From positions 992,001-1,056,000 of the forward strand of contig OZ025787.1 in NCBI GenBank assembly GCA_964019425.1: 64,000 nucleotides of DNA, written 5' to 3'. Below the pieces are notes generated by a model that ran no database searches, was not told the DNA's origin, and saw only the letters and a program-made list of their open reading frames with translations. Position 1 is the first letter of the stretch. Each line of letters begins with the position of its first letter. This DNA comes from Flectonema sp. DT1601. Taxonomy: Eukaryota. This document shows positions 4,925 through 22,060 of the stretch, one piece after another. The position numbers were made by a program, and so were the translations under genes.

Positions 4925-4987
4925 AATCAGTTCTACAATTAGTCGACCACTACATAAAGTGAAAATAAAACTGAGAAAAGACAAAAA

Positions 4988-5056
4988 AGTCTCGCAATTC
5001 CTATGACCGCACACGGGGATTTACTACCCCGTGAGGGAGATACCGAAAGCTTTACA
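4988..5056 (-). ncRNA. H/ACA-like single-hairpin (AGA box) snoRNA, copy 1
   Basis: Minus-strand hairpin with upper stem CACGGGG/CCCCGUG and pocket CGGUAUCU + UCAU, complementary to SSU rRNA AUGA-U-N-AGAUACCG. AGA box lies 14 nt from the upper-stem base. Confidence 0.75.
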
Positions 5057-5133
5057 GAGGAGCACTAACACGAAAGAACAAAACAAGCAGCAATGAGTCC
5101 AAATGCGACTTCTCACCGAGAGGAGGCAAACAA

Positions 5134-5202
5134 AGTCTCGCAATTCCTATGACCACACACGGGGATTTACTACCCTGTGAGGGAGATACCGAAAGCTTTA
5201 CA
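5134..5202 (-). ncRNA. H/ACA-like snoRNA, copy 2 (two substitutions)
   Basis: Same core with variants gaccacac and ccctgtg; pocket and AGA box unchanged. Confidence 0.7.
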
Positions 5203-5311
5203 AACACGAAGAACAAAACAAACAACAATGAGTCCAAATGCGAAGGCCTACTAACACGGAACAAGCAACAATATTCTCACCGAAGGGAACGACGAGTTCG
5301 GAGGCAAACAG

Positions 5312-5380
5312 AGTCTCGCAATTCCTATGACCGCACACGGGGATTTACTACCCCGTGAGGGAGATACCGAAAGCTTTACA
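5312..5380 (-). ncRNA. H/ACA-like snoRNA, copy 3
   Basis: Core identical to copy 1. Confidence 0.75.
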
Positions 5381-5489
5381 AACACGAAGAACAAAACAAA
5401 CAACAATGAGTCCAAATGCGAAGGCCTACTAACACGGACCAAGCAACAATATTCTCACCGAAGGGAACGACGAGTTCGGAGGCAAACAG

Positions 5490-5558
5490 AGTCTCGCAAT
5501 TCCTATGACCGCACACGGGGATTTACTACCCCGTGAGGGAGATACCGAAAGCTTTACA
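5490..5558 (-). ncRNA. H/ACA-like snoRNA, copy 4
   Basis: Core identical to copy 1. Confidence 0.75.
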
Positions 5559-5667
5559 AACACGAAGAACAAAACAAACAACAATGAGTCCAAATGCGAA
5601 GGCCTACTAACACGGAACAAGCAACAATATTCCCACCGAAGGGAACGACGAGTTCGGAGGCAAACAG

Positions 5668-5736
5668 AGTCTCGCAATTCCTATGACCGCACACGGGGAT
5701 TTACTACCCCGTGAGGGAGATACCGAAAGCTTTACA
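5668..5736 (-). ncRNA. H/ACA-like snoRNA, copy 5
   Basis: Core identical to copy 1. Confidence 0.75.
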
Positions 5737-5845
5737 AACACGAAGAACAAAACAAACAACAATGAGTCCAAATGCGAAGGCCTACTAACACGGAACAAGC
5801 AACAATATTCTCACCGAAGGGAACGACGAGTTCGGAGGCAAACAG

Positions 5846-5914
5846 AGTCTCGCAATTCCTATGACCGCACACGGGGATTTACTACCCCGTGAGGGAGATA
5901 CCGAAAGCTTTACA
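5846..5914 (-). ncRNA. H/ACA-like snoRNA, copy 6
   Basis: Core identical to copy 1. Confidence 0.75.
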
Positions 5915-6144
5915 AACACGAAGAACAAAACAAACAACAATGAGTCCAAATGCGAAGGCCTACTAACACGGACCAAGCAACAATATTCTCACGAAGGGAA
6001 CGACGAGTTCCCAAGACTTTGAAAACACCGAGGCAAAAACGGTGCAACAATCCAAAAATAACAGACATACAATTAGCGAACCTCAAGAAGAGACGCCCAG
6101 GGTGGGATGGGTGGGAAATACTTTTAGAGGTGAGAGGCAAACAA

Positions 6145-6213
6145 AGTCTCGCAATTCCTATGACCGCACACGGGGATTTACTACCCCGTGAGGGAGATAC
6201 CGAAAGCTTTACA
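6145..6213 (-). ncRNA. H/ACA-like snoRNA, copy 7
   Basis: Core identical to copy 1. Confidence 0.75.
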
Positions 6214-6443
6214 AACACGAAGAACAAAACAAACAACAATGAGTCCAAATGCGAAGGCCTACTAACACGGACCAAGCAACAATATTCTCACGAAGGGAAC
6301 GACGAGTTCCCAAGACTTTGAAAACACCGAGGCAAAAACGGTGCAACAATCCAAAAATAACAGACATACAATTAGCGAACCTCAAGAAGAGACGCCCAGG
6401 GTGGGATGGGTGGGAAATACTTTTAGAGGTGAGAGGCAAACAA

Positions 6444-6512
6444 AGTCTCGCAATTCCTATGACCGCACACGGGGATTTACTACCCCGTGAGGGAGATACC
6501 GAAAGCTTTACA
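6444..6512 (-). ncRNA. H/ACA-like snoRNA, copy 8
   Basis: Core identical to copy 1. Confidence 0.75.
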
Positions 6513-6621
6513 AACACGAAGAACAAAACAAACAACAATGAGTCCAAATGCGAAGGCCTACTAACACGGACCAAGCAACAATATTCTCACCGAAGGGAAC
6601 GACGAGTTCGGAGGCAAACAG

Positions 6622-6690
6622 AGTCTCGCAATTCCTATGACCGCACACGGGGATTTACTACCCTGTGAGGGAGATACCGAAAGCTTTACA
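6622..6690 (-). ncRNA. H/ACA-like snoRNA, copy 9
   Basis: Core with the ccctgtg variant. Confidence 0.7.
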
Positions 6691-6767
6691 GAGGAGCACT
6701 AACACGAAAGAACAAAACAAGCAGCAATGAGTCCAAATGCGACTTCTCACCGAGGGGAGGCAAACAA

Positions 6768-6836
6768 AGTCTCGCAATTCCTATGACCGCACACGGGGAT
6801 TTACTACCCCGTGAGGGAGATACCGAAAGCTATAAC
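6768..6836 (-). ncRNA. H/ACA-like snoRNA, copy 10
   Basis: Core conserved except at the minus-strand 5' end (gaaagctataac). Confidence 0.7.
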
Positions 6837-10424: not shown

Positions 10425-12124
10425 TCAAGAAAGAATCAACAAAAAAATATGTATGACTGGGTCATACAAGTCGATTTCATTTTTTTTTTTTTTTTTTCAA
10501 ATTAAAAAAATTAGCATTTGCCTCCAAACGTCAATTTTCACAGTAGGCAGCGTATCACAGCAAGTTGCTTGCTTGCTCCGTGATTCTGGCTACGATCGGA
10601 AAACCATTGCAAGTTGAAAAAGCAAAAGTGGAAAGGGGAAAAAAAGGGTGCACCAACAAAAACTAGTAGCTCCAAAAAGAAAAAAGGAAAAAAACGATGC
10701 CAAAGTAATTATATTTTCACAAACATCGATCTTATACTCGACCCGATGATATCAACCTAAAAAAGAGAACGGAATTATGAACCATAAGAGGAGACCGTCT
10801 AGGGAAGCGATACACACATCGTCTCGTTTTTTGCTGTAAACAAAGTACTCAATCCGACTAGCTATAATGTCTTCATGTGATGACGAGTTCGAGAATTCAA
10901 AAAAAAAAAATATTTAAAAAAAGACTGTCTCCAGTAAAAGAAAGTGTTCAACCTATCGATGCAACTGAAGGTGCAAAAAAGAGCAAAAGTATTCACACGA
11001 CAGAGAACAAGGAGCATAGCTAGGAGACAGACAGGGGGGGATCTTAACTGACAGTACAAGTAACATCGGACTACGTAGTACTAAAAGCTGAAAGAAACGA
11101 AAATACCTTCACGCAGACAGCAGAACCAGAATAGAAGAAAAAGTGCACGAGAGGGAGAAAGGAAGGACCAAAAAAAACAAAAACAAAGAAAGCCATCAAA
11201 AGTATTAGATAGAGTTCCTGAGGTCATGTAAGTGAAATAACTTTTCACAGGAAAGCGGGACGGCAAAAAAGCAAATCATTGGGTGACCAGCACTCATTTT
11301 CCCACCGAAAAAAATCCTGCTACAAGTCAAGGAAGGCTAACACACCACAAAAAGCAATCAACACACACAAAATCCTGTTGAGATTACCAACAGAGAATAT
11401 GACGTAAAAACACATCAATTTCCCCCTTTTTTTTTTTTTTTAAACGAAATCAATTTATTTCTTGTCTACAACAAGTATTATACGAGTTAAAAGAATGTCG
11501 ACAAACACACCAAAATTGATATTCGTGTGCATACTTTCTTTATATTATTCCTGTTTAGTGCTGTTCATATTAATAGGTGAATCCGTGTAAGACAAGCGGG
11601 AAAAAAAAAGGATTCGTACACTGCTAAACAGAAAATAAAAACACGACAATACTACAACAGCAGCAGAAAATAAAATTGCGTACTAATTTTTTTTAAACAG
11701 AGTGACTAAGAAGAGGGGGTAAAAACTACAACTATTCTTTTTTTTTTTTTTTTTTTGTTTGTTTGTTTGTTAGTTAGTTAGTTAGTTATTTAATCCAACG
11801 TTACTGTATATTATGAGTGCTAGGTAACTCACAGTAACAGAGGACCCAATCCGTAGCCATATCCGAAGATTTCGCATGGATTGTTGAAGTAGCATCGACT
11901 GAAAGATTAATAAATACCAATCTCCAGCTTTCCGCCTCGCCTAGCTTATTAAACTATCGAACTAAAAAAAAAATAAAAAAATAAAAAAAATATAAAATAA
12001 AATAAAATAAAATAAACAAAAAAAAAATTAATAATAAATAAATAAAAATCATCAAAATTAAAACGGGATAGAACAATTACACTGATAATATACTAAAGCA
12101 CTCGTAGAGCATTAACAATTAACG

Positions 12125-15100
12125 CTAGGTTGGCAGCAGCCATTTATTTGAATCGAACCACACTGGATCGATCCGAGTAAATTTAGAAGACCTTATCTTC
12201 TCCAGGAATGAGTTAAAATGTTGGTTTTTGTTTTTATCCGAATTCAAGAAACAGTATAACTCCAAGTCCCACAAATGGTCGTAGACTTTTTCGATTTCAT
12301 TTGCGTTATAAACTTCTGAGATCAGTTTTCTGACTTCCTCCTTACACTTCGAATCAAGTGTGGTAACAGTGGAATGAACGGACAAATATTTGACAAGACG
12401 TTGTCGAGGGACCGCTCGACGTAACGGGAAGCTGTCGTGTAGGCTCCTGAGGTCATTCAAGAGCGATATGAGAGCCAATTGGTTTTCAGTAGCAAAAAAC
12501 TTGTGTAGATGTTGACCCACATCCTCATCTTGATCATTAAATACCATCTGTGGGAAGTGAATTTGAACAAACATCTTAGTCTCCGGACATTTCGATAGTA
12601 AATGGTGAGTATCTGTATCTCTTTTATTACAGAAGAGACAGTTTGATAATCCCTTTCTTGGTTGCTTCACAAGCGGATGGTGTCCAGTCCTGAGGCGGGC
12701 GATTTGCATTTCTCCCTCACGGTTAAGATCCGGGTGGAAGCGTTGAGCACCTCTGCCCATTGTCGATAAAGAGTGCACATGTGATGTACTGCGCTGCTCG
12801 TACCAGTTTCTTCGGATTTTATTATTCACTGAACATTGGGTCATCCTGTAGTCAAACTTGACCACTGTTAAGGGAATAGCAGAAGCCGCTGCTTTGTTGG
12901 CGAGAGAATCGGCCATTTCATTTCCGATGATCCCACAGTGTGAGGGGACAAATTGTAGGGTGATCGGACGCTGGAGCAGCGATATTCTCCTAAATAATTC
13001 GGCATTAGTCGCTGAATGTTGCTTCAGATGTCCACGCTCAAGACTTCGAAGTGCTGACTGACTATCCGTGATTATATTAATCCTCCCACTTGGCAGGCAA
13101 GACGAATACTTTTCAATCAAATTCACTGCTGATAACAGAGCCTGTTGCTCGGCATTATAAATCATCAGAGATGGGTCGTAACGATGTATTTCTTTGATGC
13201 ATCTCTTTCCAAAGATTAAAACTGCTGCATTACCACAATGGTAGTTACTTTCTTTATCTTGGAAGTAGGATGCATCTGTATACAGCGAGGCCACTGACTT
13301 TGGGAGGGTCTTAATTTTTCCAAGTGCAGCTAACAAATTCTTGCATGGGTCCATGGACTTACGGAAATCTGCCCAGGAATTGATAATAACATCCGGGGGT
13401 GGTCCCCAAGGAGTCTGGTGATGCGGTAGGCAGAGCATTGATCTTTCATTAGGGGTCACATAAGTCTTGGCATGGGGTTCTGCGTAGAGTTTCCACGAGC
13501 TAGACTTTTCAGGGTGAACCAACGACCGAGTCGGGCAATCGTCTGGGAGCCTCAGGAAACGTTCGTAGGATAAAGCCAGGACTTTAGCCACGTGTAGTTT
13601 GAACGGGGGAATACTAGATTCTACCGATAATGCAGTTGAGGAGGTCGATTTTGAGCATCCCGTCAGTCTTAGTTGAAGTGAACGAAGTGTATTCTCAATA
13701 AGTTTCAAAGAATTCTGCTTGATATAGGGTGCATAAGAAGCTAGTCCGTAATAGGCCCTAGAGAGGATCAGCCCATAGATTGTTTGTCGGAGAACTTCCG
13801 TTTTGATTTTAAAAGATGAAACTATCGAAATCAAGCCGATTCCCCGCTTTAGGGTATTTGATAGGTGAGCTAACTGCGATGTAAAAGATAAATCATCGTC
13901 GATAATTATGCCTAGATACCGCGACTGCGACACACGCCTTAGAGGGATTGCAGCCTTTAGAACGAAAGAACCCTTTGGCGTCCTTTGTGAAAGTTGAGAG
14001 CGGGTCTCAAGGTAGTTACCATTAATTGCAAGTGGGTATACCGGTCCTGTTTTGAAATTGAGCAGAGCTGCGGCACCATCATCCTGATGTATCCTGATGA
14101 AGTCGGCAGAGCCACGGGGAAGGTCGATATCGTCCACCGTAGAGGGAAAATAAAGTCTTGGAAGTCTACAAATACTTCTGTCTGAGAAACGTCCTCCGAA
14201 TGCCAAAAATTCAGTCTTGTTCAGAGAGAGGGACATTGCTGAATCAGCGAGCCAGTTCTCCACTTGTCCTATGGCATTGTTCGCCTTGGATTCCAAATCA
14301 CTAACCGAAGAGCCACTAACAAACACTGTCAAGTCATCCGCGTATAACAGCTTTAAATCGGCTGTGATGGCATCCGGTAGGGAGTTCACGTACACACGGA
14401 ATAAGAGCGGTCCTAGAATACTGCCTTGTGGGACCCCCTTTTTGCAAGAAATCGGGCCTGTACGGTTATGGCCGTGGAGAAGATGCGCTACTCGGTCCGA
14501 GAGGAAATTACCAATCCACCTTACATAAGGGACTGGGATGAGTGTTGTAAGCCTACTCATTAGAATATGGTGATCCACATTATCAAACGCACCCGAGATA
14601 TCGAAGAAAATCATCGTTGCACATTTCTCATAATTGTTTTTAACTTCAGCTGCAGCTTCGATCATAACGGCTATATTTTCCTCCGCTGACCTACCAGGAA
14701 CAAACCCAGATTGTTTAGGGTCTAGTTTAGAAATCAGCAGATGTTCTAATCTAAAATGGACAAGGGATTCAATGAATTTAGCAACTACTGAGGTCAATGA
14801 GATAGGACGATAGGAGGCGGCATCAGTCGGGTCCTTTTTGCTACCTTTTAGAATAGGGAGAACATGTGCTACTTTCAAACATTTCGGGAAGGTTCCTCTC
14901 TGGAAAGACCAGTTTGCAATACGTAGGAGAACTTCCTTAGCCATATCTCCAAAATGATAAATCATGTTGTTACTTATAGAATCCGGACCGGAGCCGTCAG
15001 ACTTTTTCAAAGAATTAAAAACTGCTTGGGCCTCTGCCATTGTAAAAGGAGAGCAACTGGGTTCTGAAAAATCCACCTTTGAAGTATGCGGAATAAGCAA

Positions 15101-16249
15101 GGGACGATTGTCAGAAGAATCAGGGAAAAAGCGACGTTTGAGCGCTCCGACGTTCACCTGCGGGGTCTCAATAACCGTTGACTCTCCTTTCAGTTCTCGT
15201 AATTTCTTATAAGTCCAGCTAAAGCCCTTCTTACAACCGTCGATTAGAATAAGTTCAGGGTCCAAATGGCGATGTTTGCGTTTAACCCGGAAAGATTCTT
15301 TGTGCCACTTATTTGGAAGAGTATCAATCGCAACAGATTCTATTGTTCGAACAAAACTGTCACAGAGTTTATTTAAAGATCGTATCCTTTTAAGTCTAAA
15401 ACAATGGGAGTCAAGTTGTGCGGAGAAGGAGGACCAATGAGATTCCGTAAAACTGTTTTTGAACCATATACGATGAGCCGGAATAGCTACCGGTACAGTG
15501 AGGGGAGTCACATTAAAATCTGCAACAATTGGGGTATGATCGGAATTAACTTGCCCAGCATCAATCTGCAGCGAACGCAGACACTTGAACTGCGGCGAGT
15601 GCAATAATAAATCGGGCGTTGTACCATGAGCAGGAATAGAAGGAGCCAGAGGTTCAATAGCTAATCCATTATTTATAATCCATTCATTTACTATCCTTCC
15701 TGAAGAGACGCACCCCTTAGGAATTCGACGCGACCAAGATTCATGATGTGCATTGAAATCACCTACTGCTAGATCCCCCAAAAACATAGAAGAGGGCAGC
15801 TGGCACACCTTCGGTGGGATGTAAATATTAAAAGTTCTAAATATGCCCATGGAAGTCGAGAAACTGCAATGGATAACCTCAACAGCGGATGGATGCTTAC
15901 CTACTTCTAATTGGACCGTACCAAGAGACTTTTTGAAATAAGAAAGAAGTCCACCGCCTCCCATTTTAGAAGAGTCGCACCTATCACGGCGGAATAATGA
16001 ATATCCTGTAATACCAAGTTGATCATCGGTTACGTCTGCTTTCAACCAAGTTTCCTGGAGGTGGATAATATCAGGGTCGTGAGCTTCGATAATAGCATCG
16101 AGATGTGAACGCGATGTTTTATAAGCTCTCATATTCCATGAGAGTACCCTAAGAGGCCCAGGATTAGGGTGGATCCCTGAGCGTAAGAGGTTAATACGGG
16201 CTGTTACTGTTTCATGAAATATGTTGTCAGGAATGGGAGCGATTGATTG
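12125..16249 (-). CDS. Retrotransposon ORF2: apurinic endonuclease, reverse transcriptase, RNase H, C-terminal zinc knuckle
   Basis: APE: LRVLSWN, LQETW, GDFNAHH, SDH. RT: YRPISLTS, QSGF, DISGAFD, GVPQGSILGPLLF, YADD, YLG. RNase H: YTDAS, AEQQA, TDSQS, VPSHCGIIGNEMADSLA. Knuckle: CLFC..HLLSKC. The frame is open for 39 codons upstream of the first ATG (16132), right to the ORF1 stop. Confidence 0.96.
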   Translation of the reverse strand, partial: QSIAPIPDNIFHETVTARINLLRSGIHPNPGPLRVLSWNMRAYKTSRSHLDAIIEAHDPDIIHLQETWLKADVTDDQLGITGYSLFRRDRCDSSKMGGGGLLSYFKKSLGTVQLEVGKHPSAVEVIHCSFSTSMGIFRTFNIYIPPKVCQLPSSMFLGDLAVGDFNAHHESWSRRIPKGCVSSGRIVNEWIINNGLAIEPLAPSIPAHGTTPDLLLHSPQFKCLRSLQIDAGQVNSDHTPIVADFNVTPLTVPVAIPAHRIWFKNSFTESHWSSFSAQLDSHCFRLKRIRSLNKLCDSFVRTIESVAIDTLPNKWHKESFRVKRKHRHLDPELILIDGCKKGFSWTYKKLRELKGESTVIETPQVNVGALKRRFFPDSSDNRPLLIPHTSKVDFSEPSCSPFTMAEAQAVFNSLKKSDGSGPDSISNNMIYHFGDMAKEVLLRIANWSFQRGTFPKCLKVAHVLPILKGSKKDPTDAASYRPISLTSVVAKFIESLVHFRLEHLLISKLDPKQSGFVPGRSAEENIAVMIEAAAEVKNNYEKCATMIFFDISGAFDNVDHHILMSRLTTLIPVPYVRWIGNFLSDRVAHLLHGHNRTGPISCKKGVPQGSILGPLLFRVYVNSLPDAITADLKLLYADDLTVFVSGSSVSDLESKANNAIGQVENWLADSAMSLSLNKTEFLAFGGRFSDRSICRLPRLYFPSTVDDIDLPRGSADFIRIHQDDGAAALLNFKTGPVYPLAINGNYLETRSQLSQRTPKGSFVLKAAIPLRRVSQSRYLGIIIDDDLSFTSQLAHLSNTLKRGIGLISIVSSFKIKTEVLRQTIYGLILSRAYYGLASYAPYIKQNSLKLIENTLRSLQLRLTGCSKSTSSTALSVESSIPPFKLHVAKVLALSYERFLRLPDDCPTRSLVHPEKSSSWKLYAEPHAKTYVTPNERSMLCLPHHQTPWGPPPDVIINSWADFRKSMDPCKNLLAALGKIKTLPKSVASLYTDASYFQDKESNYHCGNAAVLIFGKRCIKEIHRYDPSLMIYNAEQQALLSAVNLIEKYSSCLPSGRINIITDSQSALRSLERGHLKQHSATNAELFRRISLLQRPITLQFVPSHCGIIGNEMADSLANKAAASAIPLTVVKFDYRMTQCSVNNKIRRNWYEQRSTSHVHSLSTMGRGAQRFHPDLNREGEMQIARLRTGHHPLVKQPRKGLSNCLFCNKRDTDTHHLLSKCPETKMFVQIHFPQMVFNDQDEDVGQHLHKFFATENQLALISLLNDLRSLHDSFPLRRAVPRQRLVKYLSVHSTVTTLDSKCKEEVRKLISEVYNANEIEKVYDHLWDLELYCFLNSDKNKNQHFNSFLEKIRSSKFTRIDPVWFDSNKWLLPT
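16154..16189 (-). other. 2A-like (StopGo) peptide motif LLRSGIHPNPG|P
   Basis: In-frame translation reads ...TARINLLRSGIHPNPGPLRVLSWNM. It lies immediately before the APE domain, where 2A-like motifs occur in L1Tc/ingi-type elements. It deviates from canonical D[V/I]ExNPGP. Confidence 0.75.
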
Positions 16250-16252
16250 CTA
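16244..16252 (-). promoter_or_regulatory. Stop-codon readthrough signal UAG-CAA-UCA (UAG-CAR-YYA type)
   Basis: The ORF1 stop TAG (16252-16250) is followed by CAA TCA, in frame with ORF2. This matches the tobamovirus-type leaky-stop consensus. Confidence 0.75.
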
Positions 16253-17959
16253 CTGGGCTGACTGGTTGTGCTTCAGTTGAGCCGCCATATCAGCGTGAGA
16301 GTTGGCCCGAGGGCGCTGGTCGGTGGAATCTCTACCGCTGCGGCGTTCGCGATCTTTGTTGGATTTACCCAGTTTATCTCTAAGTTTCTGATTTGCTTCT
16401 TTCTCCGCGGCCAGTTCCCTTCGTAATCCATCTATGGTAAGGTTGAGCGTCTGCAGTTGCTGCATGATCTCAGCATTGGAAGGCTCAGAGGGCTGACTAG
16501 GGAGTTGTAAAGGGGTTCCAATCGGCGTGTCAATAGGTGTTTTGTAACACTGGCTGTTATTATCCATTGCCACATCCCCATCCGACTTTCCCAAGGCCGG
16601 GAAATCTTTCTGCGTTGGAAGTGTTGAAGACACAGCATTCACTGTGATGAAGAAGTCATCAGCCCACAGGACCGAGCTGGGAGGCGACGTCCGTGCCACT
16701 ACTATACAATGACTAGACCTCATGTTCGTCTTCGAATTTTTCCTGCTGAAGTGGGTACAGGTCGAAATTTCCCAACCATGGCTATTACAGATTTGCCATA
16801 GTTGGCTCCGAGAAAGGCGGCCCACATGATCACCAGAGATTCTGTATTTATCTCCTACCGGTGGAGCAGGACATGCAAGCTCTCCAAGCGATGAACGTGT
16901 TTGGTCAGTCATTGATGCCGAACAGATTATTCCTAGTTTGTTTGTACCACGTAAGAAAGTCACCGGAGAGTTGAGGGACTTCCCGATGTTTTTCGCCTGC
17001 TGAAGATCGTTTGTCTGTAGCATGATGATGCTTAATTTTGCATCTATACTGTCCTGGGTAAATTTCGGCAATGTGACAAAATACCCGTCTGGGCCGTTGA
17101 CTGTGACCTCCAACGACAGCTTGTGAACGCGCGTACACGGAATTCGCATGTTCACCGTTCTAATTTTATTAGAGGTTTCCCTCTGTTTTGATGGCCACAC
17201 CAGGTGACTGTCGATCTCTTCGCCGAACGCACTGAGGTATGCTGCTCGTGCGCGTGTCATCAGAAAGTCCGGAGTGACTTCCACCTTCTCAGCAAAATAA
17301 GATTTATGCGCGTGAAATAACACTACGCAATTTTTAACGTTTCTCTCAGACTTCTGTTGGGTTCTGAGAGGGGCTTTCGTGCTGCCGTAGGACGAGATCC
17401 AACCAGTACGCGACGACGTTTTTCCGTTGATGATTATTGGAAAAGTCAGCCGAGTGCTACCTTCCAACTGTTTGTGAGTGATGACTGAAAAGTCACCTTG
17501 TTTGCGAGACGCCAGGACTGCGTCTGCTGGGTTACAAATAAAAATACCAGAGGTATTGCTAATACTTGAGAAGGCTGTCGTAGCAGTGACAACCGGTAAA
17601 ACCCAGTCTTCTGGTCGTAAAGTGATGTTCTGCCATGAAGGTGGCAGAGTTTTTAACGGAGGTGTCTTAATCAGCGGGGTCTTAATCTGCTGGGTCGACT
17701 TCGTATCAGGCTTCTTCGCCATATTCAGTAAGGCGCCATAGTATCCGTCCTTCTTACCCGGAGCAATGGCTGATCTCTTCGCTGAGCTTTCTATTTTTTG
17801 CGGACCTCTAACTTTTTGCCACTTGGCTTCTGTTTTTTCCGCCTCTCCCTTCTTCTTCTTCGTTCTCTTCTTCTCAACACTCAGTTCCTCACTCAGGAAT
17901 TTCCTGAAGAGGGACAACAATCGGGCCTCATCAAGAGACCCGACCGGCTGTACTTTCAT
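16250..17959 (-). CDS. Retrotransposon ORF1 (569 aa; basic N-terminus, C-terminal coiled coil)
   Basis: Intact ORF directly upstream of and in frame with ORF2. Coiled coil IMQQLQTLNLTIDGLRRELAAEKEANQKLRDKL. No CCHC knuckle seen. Confidence 0.9.
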   Translation of the reverse strand: MKVQPVGSLDEARLLSLFRKFLSEELSVEKKRTKKKKGEAEKTEAKWQKVRGPQKIESSAKRSAIAPGKKDGYYGALLNMAKKPDTKSTQQIKTPLIKTPPLKTLPPSWQNITLRPEDWVLPVVTATTAFSSISNTSGIFICNPADAVLASRKQGDFSVITHKQLEGSTRLTFPIIINGKTSSRTGWISSYGSTKAPLRTQQKSERNVKNCVVLFHAHKSYFAEKVEVTPDFLMTRARAAYLSAFGEEIDSHLVWPSKQRETSNKIRTVNMRIPCTRVHKLSLEVTVNGPDGYFVTLPKFTQDSIDAKLSIIMLQTNDLQQAKNIGKSLNSPVTFLRGTNKLGIICSASMTDQTRSSLGELACPAPPVGDKYRISGDHVGRLSRSQLWQICNSHGWEISTCTHFSRKNSKTNMRSSHCIVVARTSPPSSVLWADDFFITVNAVSSTLPTQKDFPALGKSDGDVAMDNNSQCYKTPIDTPIGTPLQLPSQPSEPSNAEIMQQLQTLNLTIDGLRRELAAEKEANQKLRDKLGKSNKDRERRSGRDSTDQRPRANSHADMAAQLKHNQSAQ

Positions 17960-20900
17960 TTTAGGGGTTGTGTTGGGAAATCAATAGTTTGATCGTTAAC
18001 GAAAACGAGAAGCCAATAATATAATTCAACACTTTTCACCTCATAATTAGTTTTGCAATATGAAGTTACAAAATAAATACGATCACTGCCTACTAAGTGA
18101 TCACGCAATTTCTCTGTCGTGAGCAACTGTGAAACTCTCACAGACGATAAGAGACAATAAAAAAAAACAAATACTCCTTTTATGTAAAATAAAAGGAAAG
18201 AGAGACGATCATTAATAATCCGAATCCAGGAAAAATACCACGAGATAGCAGTAATCACGAGATAGCAGTAATTTGGTACAGTAATTTTCATTGGGCTTTG
18301 AATCGGAGATAGGTTGCTGAATTGTTAGTTGGGAATGTATTAAATGAAATAAACAAAACTCAAAGATAAGATGAGAGTTATGCAAATGGGGAGGAAAAAG
18401 GGAAATAAAAGTCGTGTTGGTGTTCATCTCACCCAAACAGAATTTCTGCTACTCACCAAGACAACTCCTTAATAAGGCTTAGCCTGTGCAGACAATTCTT
18501 CCAACCAAACAACAGATTGGCAGGTAAAAATCATTTAAAAAAGAAAATTAAGTTTTTCGACTCGTTCTTCGGACACGTAAAGGTACGGAATGAGTAAGCT
18601 CTACCAATGGACTTTGCAAGTTGTCAAAATTATGTACAAATAGTACTTAGCATAGGCAAGAAAAGGAAGAACGAAGCGCTAAACAGATATACCTTTACCA
18701 GTCAAAAATAGCCGGGCAGATTTTTTTTTAAACACTTTTCCAGCAATTTGTAAATACAACAAATGTTAAAAGGGATCTTTTTTTTTTTTTTTTTTGAATG
18801 GATACCAACAAAAGAAGAGAGAGAAAAAAAACAAAAGAAAAGGGAAACGAAATCAAATTAGTTTGAGAAAAGTCTCAAGAAAAACTCTACTGCAATATAA
18901 TTTCCTTTACAGGAACGGAACCAGATGCGTTCTCAGTTTGAGAGAAACACAGATTTGAACAAGCCTTTGTTTTTGATGCCATCAGGATCAATATCGTTAT
19001 CTTGAACGGGAAAGTTGTAGCAATAGATTACCTCTCGAGGCATCTCATAAGGATAATTGAGTGCGAGCATCGCTTTGCTGCGACTCATAATGAAAATCAA
19101 AAAGAGTGGCGCGAGATGATCACATCTTTCGAGACTGTGAACTCACCAAGAGATATCTTGGAATACCAATATTGTAAAAAAAGGAACGAAATAAACCAAC
19201 GTACGACTGACTAAAAGAATGTGTCAGTTGTCACCCAAACAGTACTACAATACAATAATGATATTCTGATCTAAGTTGTCACCTTGATAAGGCGGATCGC
19301 TAAGAACCTTTTCTCGGACCCTCTGTGACTATTAGTTTACATAATTTCCATAACAATAATTAAAAAAAACTACATATTCGGGAGAAAATTAAGGAAAGCA
19401 GTCATTTGCTAGGCCAGTAAGAAATTTTCTTGGACCTGTGCGGGATTAAAAGATTAAAATGTAAAAAGAAAAAAATAGTGTTCTTTAAAATGGTATAATG
19501 ACGGTTGCTTATTGGTTCCTTCTTTTTCTTTTTTTTTTTTCTAATAAAGAGAAGGAAGCATTAGCAGTAAGATAATATGTGTTGAAGAAAAATCATCAGC
19601 AGAATTTATTTAGCGGGGAGGGAGAAAGTTTTTTTTTTTCTTTTTTTTTATATTGTAATTCTCTAACAAAGAAACTTAAAAATGAAAAGTTCTTGAGAAA
19701 GAGAGATAAAAAAACGCGAAAACAAGTATAACTAAACCAACGGCGAAAGAATATTTGCACAGGCTAGAAAAATGCAAAACTGATTACGAGGATTTTTGAT
19801 ATTACATACAACTAAAAAAGCATCAGAAACAAACATGCCAAAGGTAAATTAGCTTATCGCCCTAAGGTGTATCCAAGAGAACTTCACACGCTAAGCTGTG
19901 TTAAGATCAATCGCTAATCCAGTAAACAATTATAGATTACAGAAAACCTTAAAGGCTGCTGTCGACAGCATGATGTCCTTAACGCAGTTGTAAGTACATA
20001 ACAACACATAATCTATATCAAGCTATCTTCTCCGGTGTGTGGCGAAACAAAAAGGAGTGAACGCACTTTATACAAAAAGTATATAAAGTAAAATTCGAAC
20101 AAAACTTTTGTTTTTGAAAAGCACACATGGAAGGAGAGGATCCGCAAATGTAATAATAAAAATGAACAAGCACCCGAGAGTTTCTTGATTCAGGTTTTGT
20201 ATACAAGCACGTTGGAGGCTGCGTGTTGACACAAAATGTTTGATCATACACACAAGAAGTTAGTACTAGTAAGCCCAGAACTGATGCCTGCAGGGGTCTA
20301 GGTAACCCGCACCAGTAGCCAGATCGCAGAAATCGTGTTTTTATAGCTTCGGTCGGAAGGATCGACTCCCAGCTTTCCGCCTTGTCCTGAACTAACAAGC
20401 TGAAAACAAAAAAAAACAGAAAATGATGGGGAAGGAGGAGAGTTGAGAGTAATAAATAAAATATCTTTGAATTAACCACATGCGCACCACGAAAATAAGA
20501 AAACCGAAACAGGACCGAACCGGGTACACCCCTAATTGCCCCAAGCATTAATGTTGCAAGGGTTACCCTAAAAGAAGTACCTCAAAAATTGGACACGAAT
20601 AATTATACCAGTCCAGTAAGAATACGAATTTATTATAAGATAGTGCACTAAATCAAAATATTAAAAAGAAAAGTTATAAAAAAAACACCTTGTGCTGCTG
20701 TCTCATAAAACACTGTGGCCTTAATCTTATTTCCTAGGCCTTCAGTAAGTTCTGGGGATTACTTCTTTTCAGCTTTTTGATAAATCAGATTTATCAATAT
20801 CTATTTCAAAGCACAGCAAGAAATAAAACAAAAAAAAAGTTCAGATGAGACGGTCAGTTTAAGGTCTGCACTAACTAACTAAACTGAAGAATAGCAAACA

Positions 20901-22060
20901 TAAGGAAAACAACGAAGAGGAGAACAATGCCGCCTGAGTATTTTAAAAAATATTTAAAAAAAAAAATAATAGCAATCTTGTTCAATCACACAATCCGTAC
21001 CTTCCGAGCAATCTCGCCAACTCCATAGGATTATAACGCGCTCTACAGGACAGACAAAATGACGAAAAGTGTTCTACTTGAATTATAAAAAGAATTTTAT
21101 TTTTAATGGGTATCTTTTTTTTTTTTTTTTTTGGCTTATTTTTTTGTAATTAATTAACCACCACAGGACAAGACACAAGCCATTTTTAAACCCGAATGTC
21201 TTATAATAATCAATTGCGGAGAAACAAAAAACAAAGAGAAAAAGAAAAATCATTCATCGCTGCCAAAAGGAATACAATGACTATGTCATAGATGGGAATG
21301 AGAAATGTTTTTTTTTTTTTTTTAAATTCTTGTTTTTTTTTTTTGTTGTCTGCAGGATATTTTCACTTACCTCCGTGGTACAGTGATAAAGGCTATTGTT
21401 TAGTGCGAGCTAAATAACAATCGCAAAAATACAAAAGCACATTGCAACTGAAAATGCTATGCAGCTTTTCAAGATACACAAAACAAACGACTCTCACGTA
21501 TCAGATGAGCAAATGATACTTTTAATGAGGCCATTCATAAATCATTAACACAACAGTTATGACACATCCAGTGCTTCGAGACTACTCTCGGAACTTATTG
21601 AAAAAAAAAAGAGAAAAAAAAAGAAGAAAGAAAAACTATGCACAAATTATGTTAGGGTCTGAGACAAGATGCTAATGACCTTCCATGTTACACTACGGAA
21701 GGGTTAACAACTCAACTGATGAGACAACAACGATCATATTATACAAGCTAACTCCTTTAGCTTTGTTTACACAAGCAATTAAGTGTTTCTTTTTTTTTGT
21801 TTTTTTTCCCCTTTGTACTTGGTATCGTTTGCTTTTGCGCGATACAAGCTCACTCAAATCGTGTGGTAAATTTTACTTTGCTTCGCATATTTGGGGAAGA
21901 AAATCAGAGATATAGAATTGAGGTTTTTTTTTTTTTTTTTTTTTTTCTTTTTTGCTTGCAACGAGCATGTTGTTGCCTCAGGCCAAAGTTAATACGAGAC
22001 TATAAATAATAATGCATCCAGAGACCTTCTACAAAAAGAAACCATTTAGATCAGCTTTAT

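What the first reader, a model, noticed from the sequence alone, without database searches (positions are those of the whole stretch)
16133..16252. Stacked recoding cassette in a LINE: leaky UAG-CAA-UCA stop followed by a 2A-like StopGo peptide
Seen: ORF1 ends ...QSAQ-TAG and the same frame continues for 39 sense codons with no ATG (QSIAPIPDNIFHETVTARINLLRSGIHPNPGPLRVLSWN) into ORF2. The conserved first APE strand (LRVLSWN) lies upstream of the first ATG, so initiation there would truncate the endonuclease. Known: UAG-CAR-YYA is the tobamovirus-type readthrough signal, and 2A-like NPG|P motifs precede APE in L1Tc/ingi-type elements. Inference: readthrough sets a low ORF2p:ORF1p ratio, and StopGo then releases free ORF2p starting at Pro plus an ORF1p extended by ~32 aa. 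I do not know of this two-step combination being described for a non-LTR element. Caveat: the motif has G-I-H-P rather than D-[VI]-E-x, so skipping activity is unproven.
Basis: partly seen in the sequence, partly recalled or inferred. Interest (0 to 1): 0.92.

Follow-up and report, generated by a model that had tools for sequence, protein, structure and literature searches.

The report
Leaky stop then 2A in LINE
A young jumping gene of a marine protist has no start codon for its enzyme gene; ribosomes likely reach it by occasionally reading through the previous gene's stop codon, and a conserved 'skip' peptide would then release the enzyme, an untested route we did not find described for this class of elements.

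Summary
On the minus strand, ORF1 (569 aa) ends CAG-TAG-CAA-TCA. The frame runs 39 AUG-free codons through GIHPNPG|P and the first endonuclease strand into a 1374-codon APE-RT-RNase H ORF2. The host is a diplonemid that reads TAG as stop. The stop is not private: full ORF1 proteins from 7 contigs all end ...NQSAQ, and full ORF2 from 7 contigs are all called from Met40. The 2A-like block is 21/22 identical in a sister family that is only 58% identical overall, so the pre-AUG stretch is very likely translated. G and H are both known working StopGo variants, but E->H was nearly inactive in one LINE 2A. Readthrough rests on one motif (0.25-0.5% by chance) plus zero-spacer in-frame geometry. I could not see DNA of other copies or families. 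Against it: the sister family has a Met exactly where this copy has AUC, two codons after the stop, which fits non-AUG reinitiation. Verdict: a real, fixed junction; readthrough then StopGo is the best reading (~45%) but unproven.

The parts
16250..17959 (-). ORF1, 569 aa plus TAG; predicted RRM-like folds (about 207-306 and 365-454) and a long helix, likely coiled coil (495-542)
   Evidence: no Pfam hit; AF2 mean pLDDT 60; RRM matches Z up to 8.3, rmsd 2.9, 78 aligned; homologues
16244..16255 (-). CAG-TAG-CAA-TCA: ORF1 stop in type I (CAR-YYA) readthrough context
   Evidence: chance 0.24-0.5%; consensus in PMC3542737
16217..16249 (-). variable 11-codon linker; near-cognate ATC (16243-16241) aligns to the sister family's Met; also ATT codon 6 and ATA codon 10
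   Evidence: 2 of 11 residues identical to sister P0136
16154..16216 (-). 2A-like peptide HETVTARINLLRSGIHPNPG|P; predicted skip between G31 (16159-16157) and P32 (16156-16154)
   Evidence: residues 12-33 are 21 of 22 identical to P0136, above all 1314 downstream 22-residue windows
16133..16153 (-). first APE strand LRVLSWN, upstream of the first ATG (16132)
   Evidence: residues 34-39 are 6 of 6 identical in P0136
12125..16249 (-). ORF2 frame, 1374 codons: APE (36-238), RT (471-683), RNase H (988-1121), C-terminal CX2CX8HX4C read from the sequence
16130..16223 (-). predicted 12-bp stem (arms 16223-16212 and 16141-16130) enclosing the 2A coding region; not established
   Evidence: 4 of 200 dinucleotide shuffles as stable, in 1 of 5 windows I chose; 49 of 500 synonymous recodings as stable
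11735..12124 (-). 3' UTR ending in (TAAC)n(AAAC)n and a poly(A) run; probable 3' end; no target-site duplication found, 5' end unmapped

Best explanation
This is a young two-ORF LINE of a diplonemid whose ORF1 stop is followed in frame by an AUG-less ORF2; a small share of ribosomes likely read through the UAG-CAA-UCA stop, and the 2A-like peptide 31 codons later would then likely release ORF1p plus 32 residues and start a free 1343-aa APE-RT-RNase H protein at Pro. Shown: the geometry, the fixed stop position, the missing AUG in this copy, and strong conservation of the 2A-like block and first APE strand. Inferred: that this stretch is translated (strong), that entry is by readthrough (about 55%), and that skipping is efficient (about 70%). 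The result would be many ORF1p molecules per ORF2p from one mRNA, the enzyme not tied to the RNA-binding protein.
For: (1) Stop fixed: 4 of 6 ORF1 cluster members are full length, stand for 7 contigs, and all end HNQSAQ. 4 of 15 ORF2 cluster members are full length, stand for 7 contigs, and all start at Met40; none is an ORF1-ORF2 fusion. The ORF2 copies differ by 1-12 aa of 1335, so the family spread recently with this junction. (2) CARYYA by chance 0.24-0.5%, zero spacer, same frame. (3) Residues 12-33 are 21/22 identical to family 2 against 58% overall and 70% in RT. (4) Met40 initiation loses the SWN strand aligned to AP endonuclease strand 1. (5) Family 3 also has an ORF1 (P0200 cluster; shared contig lengths 1013941, 285601, 25824), and 5 of its 15 listed ORF2 members are called only from about residue 80, inside APE, which suggests AUG-less entry recurs. 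(6) PMC12846837 (sections 9, 10, 14 read): p12=G is as common as D, p14=H gave >95% activity in a native context, and G at p12 goes with P at p15; GIHPNPGP occurs 10 times and GVHPNPGP 5 times in its supplementary dataset. bioRxiv 2026.09.24.754024 (passages): E14H is the only tolerated change at D12/E14/N16, in P2A only.
Against: Family 2 has Met at the position of this copy's ATC, two codons past the stop, as reinitiation would predict. CAR-YYA was seen in this one copy only; the stop identity and context elsewhere are unknown because only proteins were reachable. The two 5' adenines that favour readthrough are not both present (CAG). A metagenome scan for TAG-CAR-YYA...2A core gave 5 matches, 0 of 5 in frame, and 0 in viral contigs, so there is no independent case. 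E->H was nearly inactive in Crack-15_BF (PMC3708506 section 7). Only 43 of 580 retroelement 2A contigs and 139 of 1969 one-off variants scored highly active. The conserved block could be an RNA constraint or a recombination patch. Start calls come from an automatic caller that also uses GTG/TTG and may skip starts.
Confidence: 0.45

Rival explanations
1. Termination-reinitiation: ribosomes stop at UAG and restart at the near-cognate AUC two codons on (or AUU/AUA), making a short leader that the 2A-like peptide cuts off, as in L1Tc/ingi. CAR-YYA is then coincidence.
For: The sister family's Met aligns without gaps to Ile3 (ATC) with P5 and P7 shared; in P0003 that Met is internal, so a true ATG. 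Reinitiation is the known LINE route: SART1 UAAUG, and L1 ORF2 initiation described as independent of its AUG (PMC5972666 and PMC5009743 passages). Near-cognate reinitiation works at up to ~45% in TURBS systems (PMC10275272 passage). A predicted stem begins 17 nt after the AUC.
Against: It needs a 0.25-0.5% coincidence for CARYYA plus 1-in-3 for frame. Met/Ile is also an ordinary substitution in a read-through linker. Family 3 shows no called start in this region. The stem is not significant against synonymous recoding. Whether family 2 has an ORF1 is unknown.
Confidence: 0.25
2. Readthrough is real but the G-I-H-P motif skips poorly or not at all, so the working enzyme is mostly an ORF1p-ORF2p fusion of about 1944 aa, like retroviral Gag-Pol.
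For: Two departures from D-V/I-E at once; E->H nearly inactive in a LINE 2A; most retroelement 2A-like peptides are not highly active; motif 5 was not among those assayed in PMC12846837.
Against: The block is more conserved than any 22-residue window of RT and starts about 20 residues before G|P, the span a 2A needs; canonical 2A cores sit at the same site in related families.
Confidence: 0.15
3. RNA processing supplies ORF2: the AG of TAG (or of the preceding CAG) is a splice acceptor for a cis intron from ORF1 or for spliced-leader addition.
For: Diplonemids cis- and trans-splice (PMC10161547, PMC12621601 passages). An acceptor at the TAG would leave ORF2 in phase 0.
Against: No pyrimidine tract before the stop: T fraction 0.13-0.15, longest pyrimidine run 5, against a run of 15 upstream of ORF1. 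Leader addition alone supplies no AUG before Met40 (leader content recalled, not tested).
Confidence: 0.08
4. ORF2 starts at Met40 or is not functionally expressed, and the family is moved in trans by a sister family.
For: Every automatic call starts at Met40; intact sister families are present to help in trans.
Against: ORF2 is intact over 1374 codons and 42% diverged from its sister with the catalytic regions kept; the pre-Met40 block is the best conserved part; Met40 loses APE strand 1.
Confidence: 0.07

Closest known systems
L1Tc / ingi clade non-LTR elements with a 2A before APE (PMC3708506, PMC3894237)
   Same: 2A-like peptide directly upstream of APE; APE-RT-RNase H order; euglenozoan host
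   Different: Those have a single ORF with no ORF1 and a canonical D-V/I-E core. This one has a 569-aa ORF1, no AUG before the 2A, and a G-I-H-P core. Clade membership was not tested with reference sequences.
CR1-26_BF, CR1-53_BF, CR1-1_LG (ORF1 plus 2A in ORF2; PMC3894237, PMC3708506)
   Same: Both an ORF1 and an ORF2 N-terminal 2A in one LINE
   Different: The passages read give no readthrough; how ORF2 starts is left open there; different clade and hosts.
Type I readthrough, UAG-CAR-YYA (tobamovirus, pomovirus, benyvirus, Providence virus; PMC3542737)
   Same: Exact consensus, downstream in-frame polymerase-type ORF
   Different: Viral cases give a fused product. Providence virus has both readthrough and 2A sites but in different ORFs (PMC6548363 figure legend). 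Activity is untested here.
Cardiovirus StopGo followed by frameshift (PMC5009743)
   Same: Two recoding events in close sequence to set enzyme levels
   Different: Opposite order and a frameshift rather than readthrough; virus, not a LINE.
SART1 UAAUG and L1 unconventional reinitiation (PMC5972666, PMC10275272)
   Same: Bicistronic LINE needing low ORF2 output
   Different: No AUG near this stop; those elements have no 2A in the passages read.

Membership tests
StopGo/2A | core (D/G/C/N)(V/I)ExNPGP, strict | tested here: not met
   GIHPNPGP has H at p14
StopGo/2A | core within the reported rare variants (p12=G with p14=H) | tested here: met
   PMC12846837 section 9; exact octamer 10 times in its dataset; the assayed p14=H sequence was not visible
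StopGo/2A | suitable upstream tract (L-rich, ending A/G/S-G, P at p15: motif 5 as described in text) | tested here: inconclusive
   NLLRSG..P fits the text; the logo is a figure and was not seen; tract conserved 21/22
StopGo/2A | measured peptide-bond skipping | not testable with these tools
   needs a reporter assay
Type I stop-codon readthrough | UAG-CAR-YYA with an open in-frame downstream ORF | tested here: met
Type I stop-codon readthrough | context conserved across diverged relatives | not testable with these tools
   no genome held; only proteins of relatives reachable; searches gave no junction DNA
Type I stop-codon readthrough | measured readthrough product | not testable with these tools
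   no RNA holder listed; needs reporter, ribosome profiling or proteomics
Ingi/L1Tc clade | APE-RT-RNase H with a 2A-like motif directly before APE | tested here: met
Ingi/L1Tc clade | single ORF, no ORF1 | tested here: not met
   569-aa ORF1 with homologues in other families and in a Flectonema transcript
Ingi/L1Tc clade | 5' HDV-like ribozyme / Pr77 hallmark | tested here: inconclusive
   no credible Rfam hit in 11500-21000; 5' end unmapped
Ingi/L1Tc clade | RT phylogeny with named clade references | not tested
   tree of 31 search hits had no named ingi references; deep nodes open
Two-ORF APE-type LINE | RNA-binding ORF1, APE-RT ORF2, A-rich tail, multiple copies | tested here: met
   ORF1 fold is a prediction, no TSD found
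SART1-type coupled reinitiation | overlapping stop-start with AUG and a downstream structure | tested here: not met
   no AUG within 39 codons in frame; structure not significant

The most novel reading that the evidence does not exclude
A clade of diplonemid LINEs makes its enzyme by two recoding steps in series, virus-type UAG-CAR-YYA readthrough and then a non-canonical G(I/V)HPNPGP StopGo. This turns a two-gene message into a tunable polyprotein and would be the missing intermediate between two-ORF LINEs and single-ORF 2A elements such as ingi/L1Tc; the sister family that has a Met there may be a step further along.
Probability: 0.4. Interest if true: 0.85.

Novelty: new variant of a known kind. 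Interest (0 to 1): 0.63.

Why it matters
How ORF2 of a bicistronic LINE is translated is a long-open question (PMC3894237 says so). This junction offers a 120-nt cassette in which readthrough, non-AUG reinitiation and StopGo can each be switched off by point changes. If readthrough holds, it adds a mechanism I did not find described for non-LTR elements and gives the element's 2A a clear job: freeing the enzyme from ORF1p. Either way it extends retroelement 2A peptides to diplonemids and supplies a natural, strongly conserved G/H double variant of the 2A core.

Tried and rejected
Genetic-code artefact (TAG as sense): rejected, host gene ends at TAG where its orthologue ends. Private nonsense mutation: rejected at protein level. 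No whole genome held. Sequencing runs: 1 listed, share 0.05, no RNA holder listed; laying it gave depth in 5 of 30 bins and none at the junction. The search for related loci with P0003 in metagenomes: 100 pattern matches, none confirmed. Cassette pattern: 5 metagenome matches, 0 in frame, no tblastn hit to 4 query proteins; 0 in viral contigs; no control pattern was run. Search for short proteins with the junction: 2 weak unrelated hits among 109 candidates. Word-based ORF1 search found only this family and missed the 39% homologue, so the lack of a family-2 ORF1 is no evidence. RNA structure after the stop: no stem about 8 nt downstream (72 of 200 shuffles as stable); the longer stem fails the synonymous test and 17% of 239 element windows score as well. 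No TSD, no second copy in the window. Foldseek gave no ORF1 match at E<=0.001. Earlier-findings look-ups returned nothing. Literature: searches listed no paper describing readthrough plus 2A in a non-LTR element; the library lacks most subscription papers, and Alisch 2006 was not held.

Full report
Observation. On the minus strand ORF1 runs 17959-16253 (569 aa) and ends CAG-TAG; CAA-TCA-ATC follows and the frame stays open for 1374 codons. The first in-frame ATG is codon 40. The only NPGP in the window's six frames lies at codons 29-32. Pfam places APE at 36-238, RT at 471-683 and RNase H at 988-1121. Solved AP endonucleases align from residue 34, so the SWN strand lies before Met40 (E about 1e-3). 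CARYYA after a stop is expected at 0.24-0.5%, and none of the other 15 long ORF ends in the window has it.

Host and code. A neighbouring mutase is 93% identical to a Flectonema neradi protein and ends at TAG at the same residue. The host is therefore a diplonemid that reads TAG as stop.

Copies. No genome or useful reads were available, so copies were read as proteins. Four of 6 ORF1 cluster members are full length, stand for 7 contigs and all end HNQSAQ; the other two are fragments. Four of 15 ORF2 members are full length, stand for 7 contigs, all start at Met40 and differ by 1-12 residues. At least five different contig lengths are involved. No fused protein appeared although lengths to 2405 aa were searched. 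The stop position is thus a property of a recently active family. Its codon and context in other copies were not seen.

Relatives. Family 2 (58% identical) begins M(M)PPPPKKQYHETVTAR(I/V)NLLRSGVHPNPGPLRVLSWNM. Residues 12-33 match 21 of 22, better than all 1314 downstream windows, while the 11-codon linker matches 2 of 11. This is the best evidence that the pre-AUG stretch is translated and that the 2A-like peptide matters, though an RNA constraint or recombination patch cannot be excluded without DNA. The same alignment puts family 2's Met on this copy's ATC, the main point against readthrough. Family 3 (53%) has its own ORF1 and its ORF2 is called only from inside APE in 5 of 15 listed members (18 in all). 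Families 1-3 form a 100/100 clade (31 chosen hits, no named references). Families 4 and 5 carry canonical GDVERNPGP. The caller writes GTG/TTG starts as Met (P0124, P0128) and may skip starts, so these calls are hints. ORF1 has a 39% homologue in a Flectonema transcript assembly that also ends ...AQ, and its model shows RRM-like folds and a long helix (mean pLDDT 60).

Is the 2A active? For: p12=G is common, p14=H was >95% active in a native context, and the exact octamers occur 15 times in a viral dataset (PMC12846837 sections 9, 10, 14 and supplement search). E14H was the one tolerated core change in P2A (bioRxiv 2026.09.24.754024, passages and sections 28, 31). Against: E->H was nearly inactive in Crack-15_BF (PMC3708506 passages and section 7), and most one-off or retroelement 2As are not highly active. 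Figures and bioRxiv supplements could not be seen and may hold a closer assayed sequence. I put activity at about 70%.

How is ORF2 entered? My weighing is inference. CARYYA is roughly 50-fold likelier under readthrough (4 type I rows of about 16 in the PMC3542737 table, against 0.25-0.5% chance) and the frame adds about 3-fold. The sister Met takes back 2-3-fold, and the prior for an undescribed mechanism, picked from a large scan, is low. That leaves readthrough near 55-60%, reinitiation at AUC near 25%, splicing under 10% (no pyrimidine tract). A predicted stem around the 2A codons looked good against dinucleotide shuffles (4 of 200) but not against synonymous recoding (49 of 500). A search for independent copies of the cassette found none in frame.

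Comparison. 2A before APE is known from L1Tc/ingi and other LINEs, mostly without ORF1; three CR1 elements have both and were proposed as intermediates (PMC3894237 parts 1-2 of 3 read). It works like an ingi element in its 2A but fails the no-ORF1 feature. Type I readthrough is known from viruses; Providence virus has both signals in separate ORFs, and cardioviruses stack StopGo with a frameshift. Other papers seen as passages only: PMC5972666, PMC10275272, PMC8310308, PMC12338488, PMC10161547, PMC12621601; abstract only: bioRxiv 2026.06.17.732966. Nine searches listed no report of readthrough followed by 2A in a non-LTR element, within an open-access library.

Verdict. Real and fixed junction, new variant of known parts. 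Readthrough then StopGo is the best single reading (0.45), with non-AUG reinitiation the main rival (0.25). One look at the sister-family junction DNA would move these odds sharply. Interest 0.63; 0.85 if the stacked mechanism is shown.

Noticed in passing
window 4944-6834: Tandem array of 178- and 299-nt units, 98-99% alike, between host genes; no Rfam match.
   Followed up: partly
window 11812-11945 and 20265-20410 (- strand): The element's 3' UTR shares short blocks with a segment 2 kb upstream of ORF1 (86 of 204 columns identical); blastn did not report it. Possibly a small repeated element.
   Followed up: partly
proteins P0005, P0173 and cluster members: Two larger LINE families (37 and 101 members) with shared contig lengths carry canonical LLLxAGDVERNPGP before APE; in the second, some copies are called from a Met upstream of the 2A and others only from after the first APE strand.
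   Followed up: partly
ORF1 ends of P0187, P0198, P0200, P0202: Last residues are Q, Q, Q and K, all codons with A in the middle, as in the TMV CAA-UAG context; weak, and the sequences are related.
   Followed up: no
window 16215 and 16139 (- strand): Two tiny out-of-frame ATG ORFs (3 and 6 codons) inside the linker and first APE strand.
   Followed up: no
window 17047-17959 (- strand): The 12 most structured of 239 windows against synonymous recoding all lie in ORF1 (best z -4.5 at 17047; 25 shuffles each).
   Followed up: no
L004 1496-1595: An unrelated metagenome contig has a class B 2A (WIKDLTEEGIEPNPGP); the pattern's TAG is out of frame with it.
   Followed up: no
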